A stretch of 64,000 nucleotides of DNA from Candidatus Anderseniibacteriota bacterium (GCA_040876835.1 JBBDOX010000018.1:18232-82231); one strand, 5' to 3'; shown: positions 47,974 to 62,197, numbered from the stretch's first letter. Program-made: numbers and translations. The notes: generated by a model not told the origin, from the sequence alone.

Positions 47974-48081
47974 GGACTTCCCTCCCAAAGGGAACAAGTA
48001 AGGGCACAGGTCTCCTAGCCTGTTGCCACTACATTAAGCATGCTTCTTCTGTTGATAATAAGTCAACTCAGACTAACAAAA

Positions 48082-48101
48082 ACACCCCTTTTGAGGGGGT
48101 G
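48082..48101. terminator. Bidirectional hairpin terminator after the zinc-ribbon gene
   Basis: acacccctt-ttg-aggggtgt hairpin with an A-run on one side and a T-run on the other. Confidence 0.5.
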
Positions 48102-48121
48102 TTTTCTTTCCTTACGCGAGA

Positions 48122-48412
48122 TTACTCACCGCGCTTGAAGTGCTCCCGGCAATATACCGGACGGCCTTCTGTTGGGCGAAACGGTACTTGCGTAGCCGCG
48201 CCACAGGTGGCACAAACAGCATCAAACATTTGACGCTCTCGGCGACCGAAGTCACCGCCACCGCCACCGGACTGCTGTCCGCGCATCTCTTTGAAGCACG
48301 AGCTACAGTACACAGGACGATCGCCTGAAGGCTGAAACGGAACTTGCGTTTCGTTTCCGCACTTGGAGCAGACCGCATCGAACATCGGTCGGTCTGAACT
48401 TCCATCCATCAT
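48122..48412 (-). CDS. Tandem double CxxC zinc-ribbon protein (96 aa; zf-trcl-like), high GC
   Basis: Internal duplication: 'RPMFDAVCSKCGNETQVPFQPSGDRPVYCSSCFK' and 'RQMFDAVCATCGAATQVPFRPTEGRPVYCREHFK', joined by a Gly-rich linker. Confidence 0.5.
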   Translation of the reverse strand: MMDGSSDRPMFDAVCSKCGNETQVPFQPSGDRPVYCSSCFKEMRGQQSGGGGGDFGRRERQMFDAVCATCGAATQVPFRPTEGRPVYCREHFKRGE

Positions 48413-48723: not shown

Positions 48724-51700
48724 ATGGCTAACACCGTTTTTAAACCATCGGACATACCGAAGATTTTTCTATATGCACTGCTTGGGATCCTGGCCATTGG
48801 GGTGGCAGGCGGCATTGCCCTGATTTCCAGATCGGATTCTCCTGATAAAGCAGCATCCTCCCCCACTCAATCGGAGGTAGCGTTTAACGAACCGCAGAGT
48901 CTTCCAGATACTTTTTCCTCTCCAGAGCCCAATGTTTCCTCTGAGAGTTTCGTGGGCGAGGATGATGCTGTGGTTCTTGAAAACACCACCGAAGTAGGCT
49001 CGGAATCTGTAACATCCCGCGTGGCCGGTATTACCGAAACGCTTAAGGAAACCTTTCAGAAACTGTATGACAATCAAGCCGGGCGTGAGCGATCAGTTGC
49101 GGTAAACGACAAGCAGATTTCTTTTGATATATACAACAAAGCCAAAAACCTGTTCATCGACTTACGCGAGGACGGAACATATTTTAAAGTTCAGGATCAC
49201 GGCCACGACGTGTTTAGGGTGGATTATGATAAAAATGTTGTCGTGCATCAGGGGGCAGTATTTCATCTCCTGGGCAGATTCAAGGATGCCAACGGGTCAA
49301 TTGGTGAAGTTAATCAGGTGCTTACCGCCCAAGATGGCGGTTCTCCTCTGTGGCAATCACTCGCCGATACAAGTACGGGCGGCCTTAACTGCACCGACTG
49401 TTTGAACGAAACGCAGATTGAAGATATTTACCTGAAAAAAGGTGGCGATACATCAACGGGTGCGCTAGTTATTCAAAACAACTTAACAGTCACCGGCACA
49501 ACGACGTTGAATGGTGCGACCTACACGTGGCCCGGAGCCGATGGTTCCCCCGGGCAGCTGCTGTCAAGTAATGGTTCAGGGGTACTCAGTTGGACGGACA
49601 ATGCAGGCGGAGGAGAGATAGGAGCCTTCGGCGGCAATTCTGTCGAATATACTTACAGCACTACGACTACAGACGAGGATCCGGCTAGCGGCAACTTGCG
49701 TCTAAATGATACCGATCTCACCGCCGCAACCGAAATGTACCTTGATGAGGAGGAGAGCAACGCAGTCAATATTCTGTCGTGGCTTCAGACGCTGGACAAC
49801 AGCAGTAACGAAGATCTAAAAGGATACATTCGTCTCTTTAAAGAAAATGATCCTTCTGTTTTTTACCTGTATGAACTAACCACTGTTACTGAGCAGCCAG
49901 GCGGAGAGGATGAGACTGAGTATGTAAAATTAACTGTAAGTTACGTGGCTGGAGCCGGCACCCTCAGCAACAGTGATTCTATTGTTTTTTCTTTCTCCCC
50001 TGCCGGCGAGAGAGGGTCCAACGGAGCGGCTGCATACCTGTATGTCGCTTATGCTTCGGATACTAACGGCAGTGATTTCACGCTAACATTCGATGCCGAC
50101 CTTGATTACATCGCTATCTTGCCATCAGATACTCTCATTGAAGAGCCCGAGGCTTCCGATTTTACTGGGTTATGGAAACTCTACGGAGATACTAGCGGAT
50201 CAGTTTGGGGAAGTATTACCGGCACACTAGCCGATCAGACAGATCTTCAGGCAGCCCTCGATGTAAAGGCTGACGAAGCTGACCTGCTAGCTCACATAGC
50301 CAATACAGATAATCCACACAGCGTCACTGCCGCTCAGGCTGGCGCAGTGGCTTTAACGGGTGATGAAACTATTGCGGGTATTAAAACATTTTCCGCTATT
50401 CCAGTTGGTCCGGGATCAGATCCAACAACTGATAACCAGTTAGTTCGCAAGGCCTATGTTGATGGAATCGCTGCGGGATTGTCGGTCCGTCAATCTGTAC
50501 GTGTTGCTACTACCGCGAACATTACCCTTTCTGGTGAACAGACAATTGACGGAGTTTCAGCCGTGACTGACGATCGCGTATTAGTAAAAAATCAGGATAC
50601 AGCCTCGGCTAATGGTATCTACATTGTGGCCAGCGGATCATGGACCAGAGCAACGGATTACGACAGTGGCAGTGGAGAAGTTGTGCAAGGATCGTTCACC
50701 AGCGTTCTAGAGGGCACCACCCAGGCCAACACCCAATGGGCGCTGGCTACAGCAGGCTCTATTACTGTCGGATCAACATCTCTTACCTTTACGCAGCTGT
50801 CAGCACAGCAGGTGTATACCGCCAGCTTAGGAGTGAAAAAATCCGGACTGGATTTTCAGGCTGATTTGTCCGGGTCAGGAGCTATCACCCTCACCGGAAA
50901 TTCGCTGCAGGTAGCAGTCGACGACCAGACAATCGAGCGATCCGGCAACGCCCTGCAAGTGAAGGGCTTAAAGACTGCAACGATTACAGGTGACACAACG
51001 TTAACGACCGGCTACAACGTTGTTCTGGCTAATAACTCTTCCAACATCACAGTAACGCTACCCGCCGCTTCGAGTGTGAGCGGGCGCGTATATCAAGTTA
51101 AGAAAGTTTCTTCTAATGCCAACACAGTAACTATTGACGGCGCCGGATCAGATACAATTGATGGAGCGCTCTCACATGTATTGTACATTCAACACGACGA
51201 GATGACGCTTGTGTCAAATGGTTCTACTTGGAATGTCTTAGCTCAAGTCCTTACTGCTCACATGGCAAAAATGACACGAAATGCGGCTCAGACAATTCCA
51301 AGTAGTACCAGTGGTGTGACAAAGCTTGCGTTTGATAACGAAGAATATGACATAGGGGCTATTGCTGATGTAACTACCAACGATCGCATTACCATTAAAC
51401 GAGCTGGGAAGTATTTGGTTTCCGCATATTGGCGCCTGGGCAGTGTCCCTGATCAAAAATATGCCGGCGTTCAAATTCACAAAAACGGCTCCGCAATCAG
51501 ACGGCAACTGAATTATGCTTCCGGATCTACCGACACTGATGTCGAGGCAACTGAAGTGCTAAACCTGGCTGCCGGCGACTACATAGAAGCGTACGCTCGC
51601 CAGACTACTGGCACATCAAGGTCGACAACTACAACGGGGTCTTTCATACCTCGATTATCCGTCATTGAGTTCTCGGGCTCAGGTGGAGCCAATGGTAGCG

Positions 51701-53067
51701 GAGGAGGCAGCGGTAGTGATGGGAATACTCTGGATCAGTCGTACGATCAGGACAGTGCCGGAGGAGGCCGATCCATCACCGCTGACAGTGGTGCCGTCTC
51801 CATCACCGTCCCTGACACTTCTGACAATGCAGCGTTGGAGATCACCCAGAATGACACAACTAACAATCCTAACGGCCTGGTGATTGTAAACACGGGGACA
51901 GGATACTCTCTACTCGTAGACAGTGGGGATGCTGCCTTTGACGCTAATGTGATCGTAGGCGGCTCTACTAGCAGAACAGAGACGATAGCTGCTGCTAGCT
52001 TTTCTCTCGGCGGCAATGATCTGTTTGTAGCTGGAGATGCTGGAATTGAGGGATTGCTATACCTGGATGGAGGAATAAACATTAATGACGGGGCCTTTGC
52101 TATTAACTCTTCCGGTGCGATTACTGCTGCAACTGGAATCACTTCTTCCGGCACCATTACGCTGTCGGGTCTTGATTGTACGGGTAATGAGAACGGCGGA
52201 GCATTAACAGCTGATGCGTCCGGGGTCATCACGTGTACGGATGACGATAGCGGCGAAGGTGGCAGCAGCGGCCTGCCCCAGAACTACGTATCCGGTTACA
52301 AGCCGACCCTCGGAGCCGACACCGCACATGATATTTCTTTCACTGCCGGATCCGCTCGATCAAGTGATAACACGACCGACCTTGTTACCGGCAGCGCGCT
52401 CGTCAAACAAATTGACGCAACGTTTGCAGCTGGAACAAACGCAGGAGGCCTGTCTTCGAGCGTTTCCCTTTCGAATAACATGACGCTCCACGCTTTTGCA
52501 ATTTACAAAACCTCAGATGAGTCGATTGATATCTACTACGACAGCAGCGTTGCTGCGGCAAACATTCCTTCTGGGTATACAAAACCGCAACTCATCTTCT
52601 CCTTCAAGCTTGATGGTAGCCAGAATATCATTCCGTTCGAATCTCACGAGATGGGGAATATTCTTGTTGTCGAGCTAGAACCTCCCCTGGGCACACAGTA
52701 CACGCCGATAAACGATGGCAATATTACCCTTGACGGTGTGCCGACCGGGTTGAAACTGCGAGTCCGCTTTGCCTACTCAGTGCAAATCGGTGAACAGTTC
52801 GGCCGATTCGGTTTTCACAGCCCTGATGTTACCGTGGACTACAACGGGCCCGGGGATGATGAGGATGACTGGCTAACCTCGCCAATACTGGACGCAAACC
52901 TGCAGGACGACAATACCGACGGCCTGACCTTCGGTCAGCAGCTGCTCTGGACAAATACCAGTGCTCAAATAACCTTTAAGGCCTATCAACCAAATACCTC
53001 CCTTACTACCGGAACAGTTGAATCTCGGGAATACTGGATTCCTCGGGGGCAGATTGTGACCAACTAG
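48724..53067 (+). CDS. Giant membrane-anchored surface protein (1447 aa) with phage-tail-fibre-like and C1q/TNF-like modules
   Basis: N-terminal signal anchor. S/T/G/N/D-rich, nearly Cys-free beta-rich ectodomain. '..DNPHSVTAAQAGA..' phage-fibre motif. C1q-like jellyroll pattern at aa ~847-983. TGCTACAAT extended -10 element upstream. Confidence 0.7.
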   Translation: MANTVFKPSDIPKIFLYALLGILAIGVAGGIALISRSDSPDKAASSPTQSEVAFNEPQSLPDTFSSPEPNVSSESFVGEDDAVVLENTTEVGSESVTSRVAGITETLKETFQKLYDNQAGRERSVAVNDKQISFDIYNKAKNLFIDLREDGTYFKVQDHGHDVFRVDYDKNVVVHQGAVFHLLGRFKDANGSIGEVNQVLTAQDGGSPLWQSLADTSTGGLNCTDCLNETQIEDIYLKKGGDTSTGALVIQNNLTVTGTTTLNGATYTWPGADGSPGQLLSSNGSGVLSWTDNAGGGEIGAFGGNSVEYTYSTTTTDEDPASGNLRLNDTDLTAATEMYLDEEESNAVNILSWLQTLDNSSNEDLKGYIRLFKENDPSVFYLYELTTVTEQPGGEDETEYVKLTVSYVAGAGTLSNSDSIVFSFSPAGERGSNGAAAYLYVAYASDTNGSDFTLTFDADLDYIAILPSDTLIEEPEASDFTGLWKLYGDTSGSVWGSITGTLADQTDLQAALDVKADEADLLAHIANTDNPHSVTAAQAGAVALTGDETIAGIKTFSAIPVGPGSDPTTDNQLVRKAYVDGIAAGLSVRQSVRVATTANITLSGEQTIDGVSAVTDDRVLVKNQDTASANGIYIVASGSWTRATDYDSGSGEVVQGSFTSVLEGTTQANTQWALATAGSITVGSTSLTFTQLSAQQVYTASLGVKKSGLDFQADLSGSGAITLTGNSLQVAVDDQTIERSGNALQVKGLKTATITGDTTLTTGYNVVLANNSSNITVTLPAASSVSGRVYQVKKVSSNANTVTIDGAGSDTIDGALSHVLYIQHDEMTLVSNGSTWNVLAQVLTAHMAKMTRNAAQTIPSSTSGVTKLAFDNEEYDIGAIADVTTNDRITIKRAGKYLVSAYWRLGSVPDQKYAGVQIHKNGSAIRRQLNYASGSTDTDVEATEVLNLAAGDYIEAYARQTTGTSRSTTTTGSFIPRLSVIEFSGSGGANGSGGGSGSDGNTLDQSYDQDSAGGGRSITADSGAVSITVPDTSDNAALEITQNDTTNNPNGLVIVNTGTGYSLLVDSGDAAFDANVIVGGSTSRTETIAAASFSLGGNDLFVAGDAGIEGLLYLDGGININDGAFAINSSGAITAATGITSSGTITLSGLDCTGNENGGALTADASGVITCTDDDSGEGGSSGLPQNYVSGYKPTLGADTAHDISFTAGSARSSDNTTDLVTGSALVKQIDATFAAGTNAGGLSSSVSLSNNMTLHAFAIYKTSDESIDIYYDSSVAAANIPSGYTKPQLIFSFKLDGSQNIIPFESHEMGNILVVELEPPLGTQYTPINDGNITLDGVPTGLKLRVRFAYSVQIGEQFGRFGFHSPDVTVDYNGPGDDEDDWLTSPILDANLQDDNTDGLTFGQQLLWTNTSAQITFKAYQPNTSLTTGTVESREYWIPRGQIVTN

Positions 53068-53103: not shown

Positions 53104-54282
53104 CTAGAGCAGTCGATCGGCAACTAAATCAATATCAGTATCCGACGATCCTGCAATTAGTATCGCGTCGCGGGAATGCGCCATGCCCCCTATCCACTTG
53201 GCAGCGTCCGCACTTTCGGAGAAATGGTGGGTATCGACATTTGCGACATTTAGAGCCGCTTCCTGAGCGTGACGTGCATCATGTCCGATCGTTACCAGAA
53301 TATCCGCTGCTGTCGCTGCTCTATTTCCAAGCGCTTTATAAATCCCAATAGCCTCTGCGCCTAAATCTGGTATCTCACCAAGAACAACAATATGCCGCCC
53401 AGCTGAAAGGGCTGCAAACGTCCTTAAGGCGAGCTGAATGCTGTGCGGTGATGCATTGGCTGTTTCGATTAATACCTGTATTCCGCGCTCTGCCTTATGA
53501 AGAGTTAAGTTTCCCCTGGGAATATTCAGTCGTCTCATCTCGCGCAGGGCAACGGCTATATCACCCTTCTGAACCCAAACGACAGCCAGAGCGGCCAGAA
53601 TCGCGGACAGCTGATGACGACCAATAATACCCGGAAGGTGTTGTTCGAATATTTCTCCGGCAACCTGTATCTCAACGGCAAACCCCCGCTCAACTCTCGT
53701 AGCCCGCAGAAGGCGCACAGTTGCTTGCCGGTGTTCGCCGTAGGTAATAACATTGGCAGACACTCGCTCTTTCATCGGCTCTAAAAGCGGATCATCAATA
53801 TTTAGCACAACTGTGCCCTCAGGCGGCACACTGACAGCTAAAGACATTAGCTCATGGACAACGTTTTCCCGAGAAATAAACTGTTCAAGATTTACGGCAT
53901 CGGCATTGGCGATCACGGCGACGTGAGGAGGAATTCTATTCCCCACCATGTCTATGTCGCCCGGCTTTTTAACAGAAATATTTACTACAATTGTCGTTGG
54001 TTCTTCTTCTAGTACTTCCTTAAGACGACTACGCGACAACACCCGCATCCAGCTTAAAAATCCCTGCTCTGGCGTAATACCAAGAATTGCTTCCGGAATA
54101 TCCCTCACTTCCCGCACGTTACTGCTTACTTGAACAGATCGGGTATGCCCGATTGCCAATCCTACTGCATCTGCCACCAAGGGAAGATGATAGCAGCCCG
54201 TTATCCCAATGACATTGACATCATATGTATTCACGTACTCTATTGCTCGCGCCCACTCCAAATGCCGCAGAAATCGTTTCAT
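53104..54282 (-). CDS. Mur ligase family protein (MurF-like) with a degenerate P-loop
   Basis: 'LNIDDP', 'GRHQLSAILAALAV', 'ETANASPHS' and 'IVVLGEIPDLG' Mur ligase motifs. The P-loop position reads 'VIGITGCYHLPL' (no GKT). Lies at the end of the dcw cluster. Confidence 0.55.
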   Translation of the reverse strand: MKRFLRHLEWARAIEYVNTYDVNVIGITGCYHLPLVADAVGLAIGHTRSVQVSSNVREVRDIPEAILGITPEQGFLSWMRVLSRSRLKEVLEEEPTTIVVNISVKKPGDIDMVGNRIPPHVAVIANADAVNLEQFISRENVVHELMSLAVSVPPEGTVVLNIDDPLLEPMKERVSANVITYGEHRQATVRLLRATRVERGFAVEIQVAGEIFEQHLPGIIGRHQLSAILAALAVVWVQKGDIAVALREMRRLNIPRGNLTLHKAERGIQVLIETANASPHSIQLALRTFAALSAGRHIVVLGEIPDLGAEAIGIYKALGNRAATAADILVTIGHDARHAQEAALNVANVDTHHFSESADAAKWIGGMAHSRDAILIAGSSDTDIDLVADRLL

Positions 54283-59968: not shown

Positions 59969-62197
59969 ATGCCAAATCCTTCGGATGGAAAACTGCTTCA
60001 GCCCGATGTAACAGAACTAATTCTGTGTGAAAATGATGCCTACGCCTGTGAAACATACATTTTCGAACCATCGCCTGGTGAACAACGTTTGGGGTACCTG
60101 TTTGCTGCAGCTGAAACAGAAAACCGAGATGGGATCGGATCAGAGTTATTGGATACCATTATTACAGCTATTCAAAAGGAATATTTCCGGGACAAGCAAC
60201 GCAGCCCCGAGACAAGCTTTGAAATGGCCCTACATCAGGCCAACCTTATTCTGCATGACACAGCCGATCAGGGACTAAGAGATTGGATGCGCCATTTTCA
60301 CGTTGCCATCGGAGCCCTGGCTGGTCACAATCTTCACTTAAGCATCGCCGGTAACGGACGGGCCTTCTTGTCCCGCAAAAGCAATCTAACTGATATTTCT
60401 GAGGGATTATCCCAAGGAGTTATCACCGATCCTCTCCAAACATTCTCTCAGGTAGCCAGCGGAGAAATTCAGCCGCGGGATACTCTCTTTCTGGCCACCT
60501 CCGCGTTTGGAGAAATGTTTCGTCCCATTGATATTACACGCCTGACTTTAGACCACTCGGCCACCACAATTTCCGGCCGCCTGGGACAACTATACAGTGA
60601 TCAGCGGCACACTGACCCCCTGGCTTTCGTAACCGTTGCCTTACTGCCACAGTACGTAGTCAAGCCGGCCAGCCGGCGCAGTTCCGATGAGCCCAACATT
60701 CGAAGAGCGGCCCCGCCTATCTCTCAGGAGCAAATAAAGCCCCGGCAACCCCTGGTTATTCACCGCTCCACCTTTCAGCGTATCCTGCTGTTTATCGCCC
60801 AGTTGGCAGTCACGGCCTGGAAAACAATTCAACTGCGCCTGTGGCCCCTGATGAAAAAAGGTTCGGTCAAGAGCGGTCGGGTTATGGTTTCAGCCTCCAA
60901 GGCTACGGGTCGAAACATCCATTCCCTAGCCCAGCGCCGCAAAAAGGACGAGCAGTCCCGCTCGATCACTCTGCGAGCCCCTCATATCTCCCGGGATTCT
61001 ATCCGTAACGGTATTGGAGTAGCAGTAGCGTATGTGATCTCTATCCCCCTGCGGGCAAAATATGCCTTCACTGCTTTGCCACGAATGGGGAAGATTTTTG
61101 GAGTCTTGTCCTTAGCCTTAGTTATTGCGCTAGTTACCAGTCTGTTTCTCTTACGCGAAAAACGTACGGCTGATGAAGACATCCAACGCGCCAGCGAACT
61201 ACTTCATGAAGCAACTACGAAAGCTCAGGCGGCGGAGACAGCTTTAATTTATGATAACCGAGACCAGGCAACGGGTTTGCTGGGTGAGGCTCAGAGTATT
61301 GTAACGCAGCTGGTTGCCAGCGGACTGTATGAGGCAGAGGTGAGAAGCCTGCAGACAGATATAACTGGTCAATACGATCGACTGCAACGCATTACCCGCA
61401 CTGATGATTCTTCGGTGCGTGTGATTACGGATCTGGCCACGATTACATCCAAGCAGCCCCGGGTTCTCTTTGCCACTCCGGACGCGTTGTACACAATCCA
61501 CCCGGAAACCAACGCTATCATTAAAATAAACCCAGATGGGGCTGCTCAGACCGTTCACGAAACCAGTGAAGGCGTCGGATTTGTTACCGGAGGTGTATCT
61601 CATCCTTCTGATAAAATGCTGATCTTTCGCACCTCTCCGGCTGGTATCGCAACCTATGACACCGTGGATGGGTCGTTTACCCAGCAGGAGATCTCATTCT
61701 CTTCACAACAGCCAGACATCAAGGATATCGCTGTTTACGGTAACCGCCTGTATGTTTATGATGCTGCCGCTGATCAGATTCTGTCATACAACAAAACATT
61801 ACGCGGCTACAGCAGTGGCTCAGCCTGGATTGAAGATCAGAGTTTCCCCAAGGATTCAATTGAGAGCCTGGCCATTGATGGCAGCGCATATACATTGCAT
61901 TCCGACGGGACAATTCGCCGACTGTTTAAAGGAGTGGCCGCAGACTTCGTGCCAGAGAAAGTTGAACCTTCTCTCCAAGGATCCACTAAAATCATTACTA
62001 CCGAAAGTGCCAATAATATATACGTTATCGATCCCGCGAATCGACGCGTGATAATATTCTCGAAAAAAGGAACCCTGATTAGTCAGCTCGTTATAAGTTC
62101 AGCTACAACAGTGAGTGACATTGCTGTCAGCGATGATGAAACTAAACTATACGTCCTGGACGGAACGCGCGTCCTGGAAGTCTCGCTGGTAAAGTAA
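59969..62197 (+). CDS. Membrane protein: N-terminal degenerate PP2C-like domain, one TM, and a C-terminal beta-propeller-like ectodomain
   Basis: 'YLFAAAETENRDGIGSEL' and 'HLSIAGNGRAFLSRK' (GDSR changed to GNGR) in PP2C order. TM 'GVLSLALVIALVTSLFLL'. The C-terminus has repeated beta blades ('LYVYDAAADQIL', 'IYVIDPANRRVI', 'LYVLDGTRV'). Confidence 0.45.
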   Translation: MPNPSDGKLLQPDVTELILCENDAYACETYIFEPSPGEQRLGYLFAAAETENRDGIGSELLDTIITAIQKEYFRDKQRSPETSFEMALHQANLILHDTADQGLRDWMRHFHVAIGALAGHNLHLSIAGNGRAFLSRKSNLTDISEGLSQGVITDPLQTFSQVASGEIQPRDTLFLATSAFGEMFRPIDITRLTLDHSATTISGRLGQLYSDQRHTDPLAFVTVALLPQYVVKPASRRSSDEPNIRRAAPPISQEQIKPRQPLVIHRSTFQRILLFIAQLAVTAWKTIQLRLWPLMKKGSVKSGRVMVSASKATGRNIHSLAQRRKKDEQSRSITLRAPHISRDSIRNGIGVAVAYVISIPLRAKYAFTALPRMGKIFGVLSLALVIALVTSLFLLREKRTADEDIQRASELLHEATTKAQAAETALIYDNRDQATGLLGEAQSIVTQLVASGLYEAEVRSLQTDITGQYDRLQRITRTDDSSVRVITDLATITSKQPRVLFATPDALYTIHPETNAIIKINPDGAAQTVHETSEGVGFVTGGVSHPSDKMLIFRTSPAGIATYDTVDGSFTQQEISFSSQQPDIKDIAVYGNRLYVYDAAADQILSYNKTLRGYSSGSAWIEDQSFPKDSIESLAIDGSAYTLHSDGTIRRLFKGVAADFVPEKVEPSLQGSTKIITTESANNIYVIDPANRRVIIFSKKGTLISQLVISSATTVSDIAVSDDETKLYVLDGTRVLEVSLVK

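What the first reader, a model, noticed from the sequence alone, without database searches (positions are those of the whole stretch)
48724..53067. 1447-aa membrane-anchored giant protein combining a phage tail-fibre motif with an internal C1q/TNF-like jellyroll
After an N-terminal signal anchor the protein is almost entirely S/T/G/N/D-rich beta-repeat sequence. Around nt 50221..50400 it carries 'TLADQTDLQAALDVKADEADLLAHIANTDNPHSVTAAQAGAVALTGDETIAGIKTF', the conserved phage tail-fibre (T4 gp34/37-like, BclA-neighbourhood) motif. Around nt 51262..51672 a segment, 'AFDNEEYDIGA...KRAGKYLVSAYWRLG...VQIHKNGSAI...LNLAAGDYIEAYA...SFIPRLSVIEF', follows the strand pattern of C1q/TNF receptor-binding domains, as in the Bacillus BclA C-terminal domain. 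It is not in a prophage context (no capsid or terminase genes nearby). It abuts the dcw cluster. This looks like a host-cell or surface adhesin built from phage receptor-binding parts.
Basis: partly seen in the sequence, partly recalled or inferred. Interest (0 to 1): 0.6.

Follow-up and report, generated by a model that had tools for sequence, protein, structure and literature searches.

The report
Membrane-anchored fibre built from phage parts
An uncultured, ultra-small Candidatus Andersenbacteria bacterium (Patescibacteria/CPR) encodes a 1447-residue protein with an N-terminal hydrophobic anchor whose outer part is assembled from modules otherwise found in phage tail fibres, including a real C1q/TNF-type knob, so it is a good candidate for how such bacteria recognise partner-cell surfaces.

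Summary
ORF 48724..53067 (+) is intact and encodes 1447 aa with an N-terminal hydrophobic helix (res 14-35). It has no DNA or protein repeats, and a second assembly holds the same protein with the same neighbours. Residues 500-565 match phage tail-fibre families (PHROG E 2e-7; Pfam BppL_N 3e-5, below cutoff). Residues 840-985 are a C1q/TNF jelly-roll: AF2 pLDDT 89; Foldseek to C1QL1/Caprin-2 gC1q with TM 0.83 and to the phage phi812 spike knob at E 9e-9; a family profile hits C1QL2 at 7.5e-5. The protein is not repeat sequence. It is a mosaic of about 11 unrelated modules. Relatives of modules D, G and H lie in phage structural gene strings. The juxtamembrane module A1 (res 96-235) occurs in about 19 protein clusters, always N-terminal, and 18 of 19 have a hydrophobic helix just upstream. 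The three named ones are Andersenbacteria, and all three loci examined are chromosomal. Other A1 proteins also carry phage parts: one has an internal C1q module, another a Phage Tail Collar domain. The window's surroundings are housekeeping genes (dcw cluster, LexA, SOD). Best reading: a surface-displayed, probably trimeric adhesin fibre, analogous to Bdellovibrio MAT fibres. The adhesin function and trimer state are inferred. It is a new variant of a known kind.

The parts
48724..53067 (+). Whole gene: 1447-aa membrane-anchored mosaic fibre protein (stop codon included)
   Evidence: The identical protein is NCBI 'hypothetical protein WD200_04660 [Candidatus Andersenbacteria bacterium]'. It was also recovered in a Logan assembly with the same neighbours.
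48763..48828 (+). N-terminal hydrophobic helix, res 14-35 (membrane anchor or uncleaved signal peptide). Only 13 residues precede it.
   Evidence: Hydropathy scan and sequence inspection.
48829..49008 (+). S/P/E-rich linker, res 36-95
   Evidence: Sequence. Comparable low-complexity linkers separate the hydrophobic helix from A1 in family members.
49009..49428 (+). Module A1, res 96-235: family-defining juxtamembrane domain ending in a conserved CxxC (C223, C226)
   Evidence: phmmer against 1.84e9 representatives. About 19 proteins carry it, always N-terminal, and 18 of 19 have a hydrophobic helix 60-100 aa upstream. Conserved motif alignment.
49429..49623 (+). Module A2, res 236-300: one copy of a short 'Y-x-W-P-x-x-D-G-x-x-G-Q-x-L...W' fibre repeat that is widespread in giant proteins
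   Evidence: most of the 851 hits match this stretch, with up to 32 stretches per protein.
49612..50031 (+). Module B, res 297-436
   Evidence: blastp to P0004, P0018 and P0025. phrog_35140 E 1.5e-5.
50005..50220 (+). Module C, res 428-499: a ~60-aa unit that is repeated in collagen-repeat-containing proteins elsewhere
   Evidence: blastp to P0002, P0005, P0009, P0012 and P0019 at 55-65 % identity. Several of these carry PF01391.
50221..50418 (+). Tail-fibre motif, res 500-565 (DLQAALDVKADEADLLAHIANTDNPHSVTAAQAGA...ETIAGIKTF)
   Evidence: PHROG tail-fibre families E 2e-7 to 5e-6. Pfam BppL_N E 3e-5, sub-threshold.
50419..50931 (+). Module D, res 566-736: phage virion-surface domain (tail fibre / head decoration)
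   Evidence: phrog_11518 tail fibre 2.1e-33 and phrog_2647 head decoration 1.7e-29. PDB 9nx3 capsid decoration protein 6.6e-15. Found in 371 phage records, e.g. cyanophage PSS2 at 56 % identity. Relative P0007 lies next to Phage_T4_gp13.
50932..51240 (+). Module E, res 737-839: small beta domain. It is the C-terminal domain of ~235-aa proteins, two of them named Saccharibacteria/Saccharimonadales, and occurs in phage baseplate and minor-tail proteins.
   Evidence: phrog_37034 9.5e-6 and phrog_20556 baseplate 1.8e-4. Streptomyces phage baseplate wedge and Thermocrinis virus tail fibre. AF2 pLDDT about 90.
51241..51678 (+). Module F, res 840-985: C1q/TNF-type jelly-roll knob, internal
   Evidence: AF2 model with pLDDT 89. 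Foldseek PDB: 9eul phi812 spike knob 9e-9, C1QL1/Caprin-2 gC1q TM 0.83, 8ke9 cyanophage fibre, EDA-A1, BxpB/ExsF. Family profile against PDB sequences: C1QL2 7.5e-5. Pfam BclA_C 2.2e-5, below cutoff. Homologues carry PF00386/PF18573.
51673..51723 (+). Gly/Ser linker, res 984-1000 (no prolines, not collagen-like)
51709..51924 (+). Module G, res 996-1067. In relatives it lies at about residues 50-190, in several directly after the N-terminal region.
   Evidence: blastp at 56-80 % identity to P0094, P0097, P0099, P0100 and P0102. P0097 lies two genes after an SU10_adaptor gene.
51925..52278 (+). G/A/S/T-rich shaft, res 1068-1185, with two Cys (1152, 1171). It is not folded as a monomer.
   Evidence: AF2 pLDDT 35-50. 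Sequence.
52279..53064 (+). Module H, res 1186-1447: distal beta-sandwich head, also C-terminal or near-C-terminal in relatives
   Evidence: AF2 pLDDT mostly above 90. BFVD Foldseek to uncultured Caudovirales proteins, E 1.4e-17 to 5e-13, TM up to 0.79. Only weak PDB matches. Relative P0092 lies in a phage-like gene string with SU10_adaptor.

Best explanation
The gene encodes a cell-surface fibre of a Candidatus Andersenbacteria (Patescibacteria/CPR) bacterium. A single N-terminal hydrophobic helix most likely holds it in the cytoplasmic membrane with about 1400 residues outside. The juxtamembrane module A1 is the conserved 'presentation' end of a small chromosomal family. The rest is a chain of modules otherwise found in tailed-phage virion proteins: a tail-fibre motif, a fibre/decoration domain, a baseplate-type beta domain, a C1q/TNF knob, then a second shaft and a distal head. 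By analogy with phage fibres, C1q/TNF proteins and Bdellovibrio MAT fibres, it most likely forms a trimer. The C1q knob and distal head would then bind surface ligands, probably glycans, on another cell or surface, most plausibly the host that an epibiotic CPR bacterium must recognise. Shown here: the ORF, the hydrophobic helix, the module map, the C1q fold, the phage origin of relatives of the distal modules, the chromosomal A1 family and the non-phage context. Inferred: topology, trimerisation, surface display, ligand binding and the host-recognition role.
For: The ORF is intact and has an N-terminal hydrophobic helix. The C1q/TNF fold is supported by structure and by sequence. Phage tail-fibre and virion families match res 500-985. 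Head H matches Caudovirales proteins by fold. Relatives of D, G and H sit in phage structural gene strings. Module A1 occurs in about 19 clusters, always N-terminal, and 18 of 19 have a hydrophobic helix upstream. The named members are Andersenbacteria. The loci of P0006, P0008 and P0113 are chromosomal. Other A1 proteins also carry phage parts: P0113 has an internal C1q module 44 % identical to this one, and P0129 has Phage Tail Collar plus Gp10_C. The window context is housekeeping. Codon usage matches the genome. The shaft is unfolded as a monomer, as expected for an obligate oligomer. Precedent: Bdellovibrio MAT fibres have a conserved N-terminal domain after the signal peptide and swappable tips. 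Those tips include TNF/C1q-like ones, and 4QPY is a best match there and a top hit here (PMC10769870). Epibiotic growth of a cultivated Patescibacterium needs multiple adhesins (PMC10633639). Very large patescibacterial proteins are preferentially surface-targeted (PMC13059738).
Against: There are no expression, localisation or binding data. No multimer model could be run, so the trimer is inferred. The hydrophobic helix could be a cleaved signal peptide, which would release the protein. The lifestyle and host of this Andersenbacteria lineage are unknown. No full-length orthologue exists in 5.8e9 proteins, so conservation or strain variability could not be assessed. Homology of A1 to the MAT N-terminal domain could not be tested. 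The C1q knob is internal, whereas it is C-terminal in nearly all short homologues. Its ligand-binding face may therefore be partly occupied by the downstream chain.
Confidence: 0.6

Rival explanations
1. It is a relic of a prophage or phage-derived element: a tail-fibre gene (or two fused fibre genes) left in the chromosome with no cellular role.
For: Res 500-985 and 1186-1447 resemble phage virion proteins. Module G lies near the N-terminus of several phage-context and metagenomic relatives. The part after the C1q knob therefore looks like a second fibre fused on. An AAA_14/DUF4143 ATPase and a tRNA-Glu lie upstream.
Against: No capsid, terminase, portal, tail or integrase gene lies within about 15 kb on either side. 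The N-terminus is a hydrophobic helix plus the A1 module of a chromosomal cellular family, not a virion-attachment domain. The 4.3-kb ORF is intact and its codon usage matches the host genome in all three thirds.
Confidence: 0.08
2. It is a surface shield or decoy against phages, or against other epibionts. By displaying phage-type receptor-binding heads it would occupy or mask the cell's own receptors, or capture particles.
For: The distal modules are the same kinds that phages use for adsorption. The gene has no orthologues, which would fit fast turnover under an arms race.
Against: No defence genes are adjacent. No PADLOC search was run. There is no precedent known to me for a membrane-anchored fibre acting as a decoy. 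Family members carry very different tips, which fits recognition of diverse targets better than self-masking.
Confidence: 0.1
3. It is an envelope sensor or structural spacer rather than an adhesin. Six family members have cytoplasmic MerR/HTH_17 domains before the hydrophobic helix, so the family may primarily transmit outside contact to gene regulation.
For: P0003, P0008, P0111, P0115, P0121 and P0122 have the order HTH, hydrophobic helix, A1, fibre.
Against: The window protein has only 13 residues before the helix and no HTH. It cannot itself bind DNA. Sensing by the paralogues would still require the fibre to bind something outside, which is compatible with the adhesin reading.
Confidence: 0.12
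4. It is an assembly or binning artefact that joins a phage fragment to a bacterial contig.
For: It comes from a metagenome-assembled genome. The gene is a singleton with no full-length relatives.
Against: The identical protein with the same flanking genes is present in two assemblies, of 188 kb and 73 kb. There are no repeats at which a mis-join could occur. GC and codon usage are uniform. The reading frame is continuous across all module boundaries, and both flanks are bacterial housekeeping genes.
Confidence: 0.03

Closest known systems
Bdellovibrio bacteriovorus MAT (mosaic adhesive trimer) fibres (Caulton et al. 2024, PMC10769870)
   Same: Both are chromosomally encoded, roughly 1000-aa or larger, phage-tail-fibre-like proteins of a bacterium that lives on other bacteria. 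Both have a conserved domain of about 130-140 aa right after the N-terminal export/anchor signal, followed by variable, swappable distal modules. MAT tips include TNF/C1q-like domains, and Bd2734's best matches include C1QL2 4QPY, which is also a top hit here.
   Different: The phylum differs (Patescibacteria, not Bdellovibrionota). The N-terminal helix was not tested for cleavage, whereas MAT proteins have a signal peptide and an outer-membrane setting. Homology of A1 to the MAT N-terminal domain was not tested. No Pfam family at all reached threshold on the full protein, so no S74 domain was detected. The C1q knob is internal and is followed by a second shaft and head. No experimental data exist for this protein.
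C1q/TNF superfamily globular domains: gC1q (PF00386), Bacillus BclA_C (PF18573) and BxpB/ExsF
   Same: The jelly-roll fold is the same (TM 0.83 to C1QL1 and Caprin-2 gC1q, rmsd 2.5 A; BxpB/ExsF E about 1e-6). There is also profile-level sequence similarity.
   Different: No collagen-like Gly-X-Y stalk precedes it. The domain is internal, not C-terminal. The Pfam scores are below the curated cutoffs. The trimer state is untested.
Phage fibre and spike proteins with TNF-like knobs: Staphylococcus phage phi812 central spike (9eul) and cyanophage A-1(L) short tail fibre (8ke9)
   Same: 9eul is the best structural match, and its knob is likewise internal (residues 483-585 of the 832-aa chain), followed by further domains. 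8ke9 is a fibre carbohydrate-binding domain with the same fold.
   Different: Those proteins are virion components encoded in phage genomes with virion-attachment N-termini. This one has a hydrophobic anchor plus a cellular family domain and lies among housekeeping genes.
Large surface-targeted proteins of Patescibacteria proposed as host adhesins (PMC13059738; adhesins required for epibiotic growth, PMC10633639)
   Same: All are large proteins of CPR bacteria with an N-terminal TM helix or signal peptide, proposed to mediate host recognition.
   Different: [quoted passage not shown] This one has none of these. It carries phage fibre modules, a C1q knob and the A1 domain. No paper in the library searched links Patescibacteria with C1q or MAT-type fibres.

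Membership tests
C1q/TNF superfamily (gC1q, BclA_C) | Compact ten-strand jelly-roll beta-sandwich of about 130-140 residues | tested here: met
   AF2 model with pLDDT 89 and 11 strands between res 847 and 982. Foldseek TM 0.83, rmsd 2.5 A to C1QL1 and Caprin-2 gC1q, with 292 PDB matches at E <= 1e-3 dominated by C1q/TNF entries.
C1q/TNF superfamily (gC1q, BclA_C) | Sequence match to the curated family models above their cutoffs | tested here: not met
   Pfam BclA_C scores 24.8 bits against a cutoff of 38, and there is no direct PF00386 hit. However, the family profile hits C1QL2, C1QL1 and C1QL3 at E 7.5e-5 to 1e-3, and several homologues carry PF00386/PF18573. It is a distant homologue, not a curated member.
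C1q/TNF superfamily (gC1q, BclA_C) | Homotrimeric (or heterotrimeric) assembly | not testable with these tools
   Only monomer prediction was available.
C1q / BclA architecture | Collagen-like Gly-X-Y stalk followed by a C-terminal globular head | tested here: not met
   The only G-x-x run is the Gly/Ser linker after the domain. The domain is internal, with 460 residues following it.
Phage tail fibre / receptor-binding protein | Sequence similarity to tail-fibre families | tested here: met
   phrog_11518 2.1e-33, phrog_16641 2.1e-7, phrog_8147 and phrog_25620. Matches in 371 phage records.
Phage tail fibre / receptor-binding protein | Encoded within a virion structural module of a phage or prophage | tested here: not met
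   The neighbours are an AAA_14 ATPase, GNAT, methyltransferase, TauE, SOD, LexA and RmuC on one side. On the other side are a Mur ligase, FtsI, FtsL, RsmH, MraZ and ClpB.
Phage tail fibre / receptor-binding protein | N-terminal virion/baseplate attachment region, no membrane anchor | tested here: not met
   The N-terminus is a hydrophobic helix followed by the cellular A1 module.
Bdellovibrio MAT superfamily | Conserved beta-rich domain of about 130 aa immediately after the N-terminal signal, shared by all members | tested here: inconclusive
   An analogous conserved domain (A1, about 140 aa, 60-100 aa after the hydrophobic helix) defines a family here. No MAT sequence was available to test homology.
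Bdellovibrio MAT superfamily | Mosaic, swappable distal adhesive tips, including TNF-like and novel beta-sandwich domains | tested here: met
   The window protein has a C1q knob plus head H. P0113 has an internal C1q module. P0129 has Tail Collar plus Gp10_C. Other members have unrelated distal parts.
Bdellovibrio MAT superfamily | Trimeric fibre displayed on the cell surface | not testable with these tools
   This needs a multimer model or an experiment.
Diversity-generating-retroelement target (Mtd-like) | Nearby reverse transcriptase and a template/variable repeat pair | tested here: not met
   No direct repeat of 30 nt or more occurs anywhere in the 64-kb window. No RT turned up among the roughly 30 genes scanned.

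The most novel reading that the evidence does not exclude
The 'hydrophobic helix + A1' proteins are a patescibacterial counterpart of Bdellovibrio MAT fibres. On this reading a lineage-specific presentation domain is recombined with receptor-binding modules captured from phages, perhaps phages of the epibiont's host, to set host range. The paralogues with cytoplasmic MerR/HTH domains would act as contact-sensing, membrane-tethered transcription factors that couple fibre binding to gene expression.
Probability: 0.3. Interest if true: 0.8.

Novelty: new variant of a known kind. Interest (0 to 1): 0.55.

Why it matters
How Patescibacteria outside the few cultivated Saccharibacteria find and hold their hosts is largely unknown. 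This gene and its A1 family give a concrete, sequence-defined set of candidate host-recognition fibres. Their binding heads (the C1q knob and head H) are small, confidently modelled domains that could be expressed and screened against glycans or candidate host cells. It would also extend the MAT principle, in which a predator or epibiont re-uses phage receptor-binding parts on a conserved anchor, from Bdellovibrio to a second, very distant bacterial lineage. That would suggest a general route by which cell-dependent bacteria acquire target specificity.

Tried and rejected
(1) The synteny and strain-variability test failed. A genome-contig scan with the adjacent Mur ligase returned only an unrelated Clostridia locus, so the insertion-versus-ancestral question is open.

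(2) No full-length homologue was found. The best hits among 5.8e9 proteins cover at most 12 % of the protein.

(3) Pfam on the whole protein gave only a sub-threshold BppL_N hit, and NCBIfam gave nothing on any module.

(4) PDB sequence searches of res 100-569 and of the profile for res 985-1447 gave nothing meaningful.

(6) tblastn of res 986-1447 against 50,697 GenBank phage records found no match. That part is known only from metagenomic phage-like contigs.

(7) The DGR-target idea was rejected because the window has no repeats.

(8) The collagen/BclA-type architecture was rejected because there is no Gly-X-Y region.

(9) Repeat-collapse misassembly was rejected.

(10) Recent horizontal transfer of the phage-like part was not supported by GC or codon usage.

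(11) A literature search for PDB entry 9nx3 gave nothing relevant.

Full report
**Observation.** The window holds an intact ORF at 48724..53067 (+) of 1447 codons. The identical protein is deposited as a hypothetical protein of a Candidatus Andersenbacteria MAG on a 188-kb contig. That lineage belongs to the Patescibacteria group, Parcubacteria group. A second assembly (Logan, SRR27977662, 73-kb contig) holds the same protein with the same flanking genes. Residues 14-35 form an uncharged hydrophobic stretch, with Lys before it and Arg/Asp after it, and only 13 residues precede it. The protein is rich in T, G, S, A, D and N. It is not repetitive. Self-BLAST, DNA direct and inverted repeat searches and Tandem Repeats Finder find nothing in the ORF. 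GC, GC3 and codon usage of the whole gene and of each third lie within the range of the other window genes. The ORF is therefore real, is not a repeat-collapse artefact, and shows no compositional sign of recent import.

**Context.** Downstream, convergent and 37 nt away, lies a string on the minus strand: a Mur ligase, FtsI-type PBP, FtsL/DivIC, RsmH and MraZ. Upstream lie an AAA_14/DUF4143 ATPase, a GNAT, a methyltransferase, TauE, tRNA-Glu, SOD, a Na/Ca exchanger, riboflavin synthase, RmuC and LexA. Further out are DnaB, RecR and ClpB. No capsid, terminase, portal, tail or integrase gene was found.

**Module map.** BLAST of the protein against all retrieved hits and family scans resolve about eleven unrelated modules.
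- Hydrophobic helix, res 14-35, then an S/P/E-rich linker, res 36-95.
- A1, res 96-235.
- A2, res 236-300.
- B, res 297-436.
- C, res 428-499.
- Tail-fibre motif, res 500-565.
- D, res 566-736.
- E, res 737-839.
- F, res 840-985.
- Gly/Ser linker, res 984-1000.
- G, res 996-1067.
- Shaft, res 1068-1185.
- H, res 1186-1447.

No database protein covers more than 12 % of the whole.

**The tail-fibre motif.** Residues 500-565 match several PHROG tail-fibre families: phrog_16641 at 2.1e-7, phrog_8147 at 1.5e-6 and the phrog_25620 tail collar fibre at 5.3e-6. They also match the Pfam BppL_N model of the lactococcal-phage lower baseplate (receptor-binding) protein at E 3e-5. That score, 23.9 bits, is just under the 25.8 cutoff. 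No hit supported the specific T4 gp34/37 comparison.

**Module D.** This is a very common phage virion-surface domain. It matches phrog_11518 (tail fibre) at 2.1e-33 and phrog_2647 (head decoration) at 1.7e-29. It matches the solved capsid decoration protein 9nx3 at 6.6e-15. It is found in 371 GenBank phage records from phages of very different hosts, including Mycobacterium, Ralstonia, Gordonia and Pelagibacter, and cyanophage PSS2 at 56 % identity.

**The C1q/TNF knob.** A search with res 780-994 found 64 homologues. In nearly all the short ones, module F is the C-terminal domain, and several carry precomputed PF00386 (C1q) or PF18573 (BclA_C). The segment itself hits BclA_C at E 2.2e-5, below the curated cutoff. 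A profile of the aligned family (A1 alignment) hits C1QL2, C1QL1 and C1QL3 among PDB sequences at E 7.5e-5 to 1e-3. It also hits the phi812 spike protein at 1.4e-3.

The AlphaFold2 model of res 737-994 is confident, with mean pLDDT 89 and pTM 0.81. Foldseek against the PDB returns several matches.
- The phi812 central-spike knob (9eul) at E 9e-9.
- gC1q domains of C1QL1-3 and Caprin-2, with TM 0.83 normalised to the target and rmsd 2.5 A.
- The cyanophage A-1(L) short-tail-fibre binding domain (8ke9).
- The TNF-family members EDA-A1 and APRIL.
- Bacillus exosporium BxpB/ExsF.

It is not a BclA-type architecture. No Gly-X-Y collagen stalk is present and the knob is internal. Internal knobs have precedent: in the 832-aa phi812 chain the matching domain spans residues 483-585.

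**Beyond the knob.** After a Gly/Ser linker comes module G. In relatives it lies at about residues 50-190 and is 56-80 % identical. Next is a shaft that AlphaFold cannot fold as a monomer (pLDDT 35-50), followed by a well-modelled beta-sandwich head H with pLDDT mostly above 90. H has only weak PDB neighbours and no tblastn match in 50,697 GenBank phage records. It does match predicted structures of uncultured Caudovirales proteins strongly, at E 1.4e-17 to 5e-13 with TM up to 0.79 over about 260-290 aligned columns. In relatives H is C-terminal or close to the C-terminus. The protein thus carries two receptor-binding-type heads in series.

**Where the relatives live.** P0092 (module H) and P0097 (module G) lie in same-strand strings of small unannotated genes next to an SU10_adaptor head-tail adaptor gene. 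P0007 (module D) lies next to a Phage_T4_gp13 neck gene. These are phage structural modules.

Module A behaves differently. An exhaustive phmmer of res 96-300 against 1.84e9 representative proteins gave 851 hits. Most match only A2, a short fibre repeat that recurs up to 32 times in giant proteins. A1 is confined to about 19 clusters. In every one it is N-terminal. In 18 of 19 it is preceded 60-100 residues upstream by a hydrophobic helix, and the exception starts inside A1. The motif DLxxDGTxFxVxDHxxDVxxVDxDKN...G..GQVLTxQG...PxW...CxDC is conserved.

Three members are named Andersenbacteria: P0001 and P0003 and P0108. One 201-aa member is named as a Planctomycetes bacterium MAG. Three loci were examined, and all lie among housekeeping genes such as ArgRS, IleRS, ribosomal proteins, PNPase, SmpB and IF3.

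Distal parts of the family differ widely but again include phage parts. P0113 (2704 aa) has an internal C1q module 44 % identical to the window's. P0129 (351 aa) has the order hydrophobic helix, A1, Phage Tail Collar, Gp10_C. P0006 matches tail-fibre PHROGs.

**Interpretation.** One conserved end sits next to the membrane. Variable phage-type binding modules lie at the other end. The gene is chromosomal in a lineage whose cultivated relatives live attached to other cells. This is the logic described for Bdellovibrio MAT fibres. Those have a conserved ~130-aa domain directly after the signal peptide and are displayed on the cell surface. Their tips are swappable and include TNF/C1q-like domains, whose best matches include 4QPY (PMC10769870). 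In Patescibacteria, epibiotic growth requires multiple adhesins (PMC10633639), and very large proteins are preferentially surface-targeted (PMC13059738). I found no paper linking Patescibacteria with C1q-type or MAT-type fibres.

I therefore read the protein as a membrane-anchored, probably trimeric, adhesin fibre whose C1q knob and distal head bind ligands on a partner cell or surface. The architecture and the origin of the parts are shown. Topology, trimerisation, display and ligand binding are inferred.

**Rivals.**
- A prophage relic is unlikely. The anchor plus A1 is cellular, the ORF is intact, codon usage matches the genome and no phage genes are nearby.
- A misassembly is unlikely. Two assemblies agree, there are no repeats and composition is uniform.
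- An anti-phage decoy or shield cannot be excluded, but nothing specific supports it.
- A sensing role is suggested by six paralogues that carry cytoplasmic MerR/HTH_17 domains before the hydrophobic helix. The window protein has no such domain.

**Novelty and score.** The component folds are known, and so is the concept of cell-anchored fibres built from phage parts. Several things are new here: the lineage, the 'hydrophobic helix + A1' presentation module that defines a small family, the internal C1q knob followed by a second head, and the HTH-fused paralogues. I rate it a new variant of a known kind, with interest 0.55.

Noticed in passing
Proteins P0003, P0008 (locus L007 3405-8513), P0111, P0115, P0121, P0122: Six members of the A1 family carry one or two cytoplasmic MerR/HTH_17 (excisionase-type) DNA-binding domains N-terminal of the hydrophobic helix. 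The order is HTH, helix, A1, then a fibre of up to about 2000 aa. This looks like a ToxR/CadC-style membrane-tethered regulator with a giant fibre as its outside part.
   Followed up: partly
window 48112-48412 (-): A 96-aa protein made of two copies of a CxxC...VPF.P...RPVYCxxCF zinc-ribbon-like unit joined by a Gly-rich linker. It has no Pfam or NCBIfam match. It lies in the gap upstream of the giant gene, on the opposite strand.
   Followed up: partly
window 48079-48105: A perfect 12-bp stem-loop (AAAACACCCCTT/TTGA/GGGGGTGTTTT) flanked by T-runs on both strands. It looks like a bidirectional terminator between the upstream minus-strand genes and the small zinc-ribbon gene.
   Followed up: no
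window 53104-54282 (-): The Mur ligase next to the giant gene is only 392 aa, and its Mur_ligase_M match starts at residue 85. No N-terminal Mur ligase domain was detected. The dcw string mraZ-rsmH-ftsL-ftsI-mur ligase stops here instead of continuing to murF/mraY.
   Followed up: no
window 59969-62197 (+): A 742-aa protein with only a sub-threshold DUF6923 repeat match. It may be another surface protein.
   Followed up: no
Proteins P0108, P0110, P0113, P0115, P0118, P0121, P0128, P0165: Most long A1-family members end in a conserved C-terminal block followed by a P/T/S-rich tail. The block reads IPxGGxEVxVxF...FxWxAL, and in several members it is preceded by GRIYYRYGGAWHYSAQTAGFQIP. The window protein lacks this ending and finishes with head H instead.
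   Followed up: no
Loci L005 / L006, 3.6-20.7 kb (L006 is from a 1.18-Mb contig; organism not named in the record): A ~237-aa protein that ends in module E sits in a same-strand string of unannotated genes. The string includes a Laminin_G_3 protein and a 1083-aa protein and lies next to DNA polymerase I. It may be a fibre or adhesin gene cluster, or an old phage-tail remnant. Close relatives P0036 and P0058 are named Saccharibacteria/Saccharimonadales.
   Followed up: no
window 50005-50220 (module C, res 428-499): This ~60-aa unit (AAYLYVAYASDTNGSDFTLTFD...) occurs two or three times per protein in unrelated metagenomic proteins that also carry collagen triple-helix repeats (PF01391).
   Followed up: no
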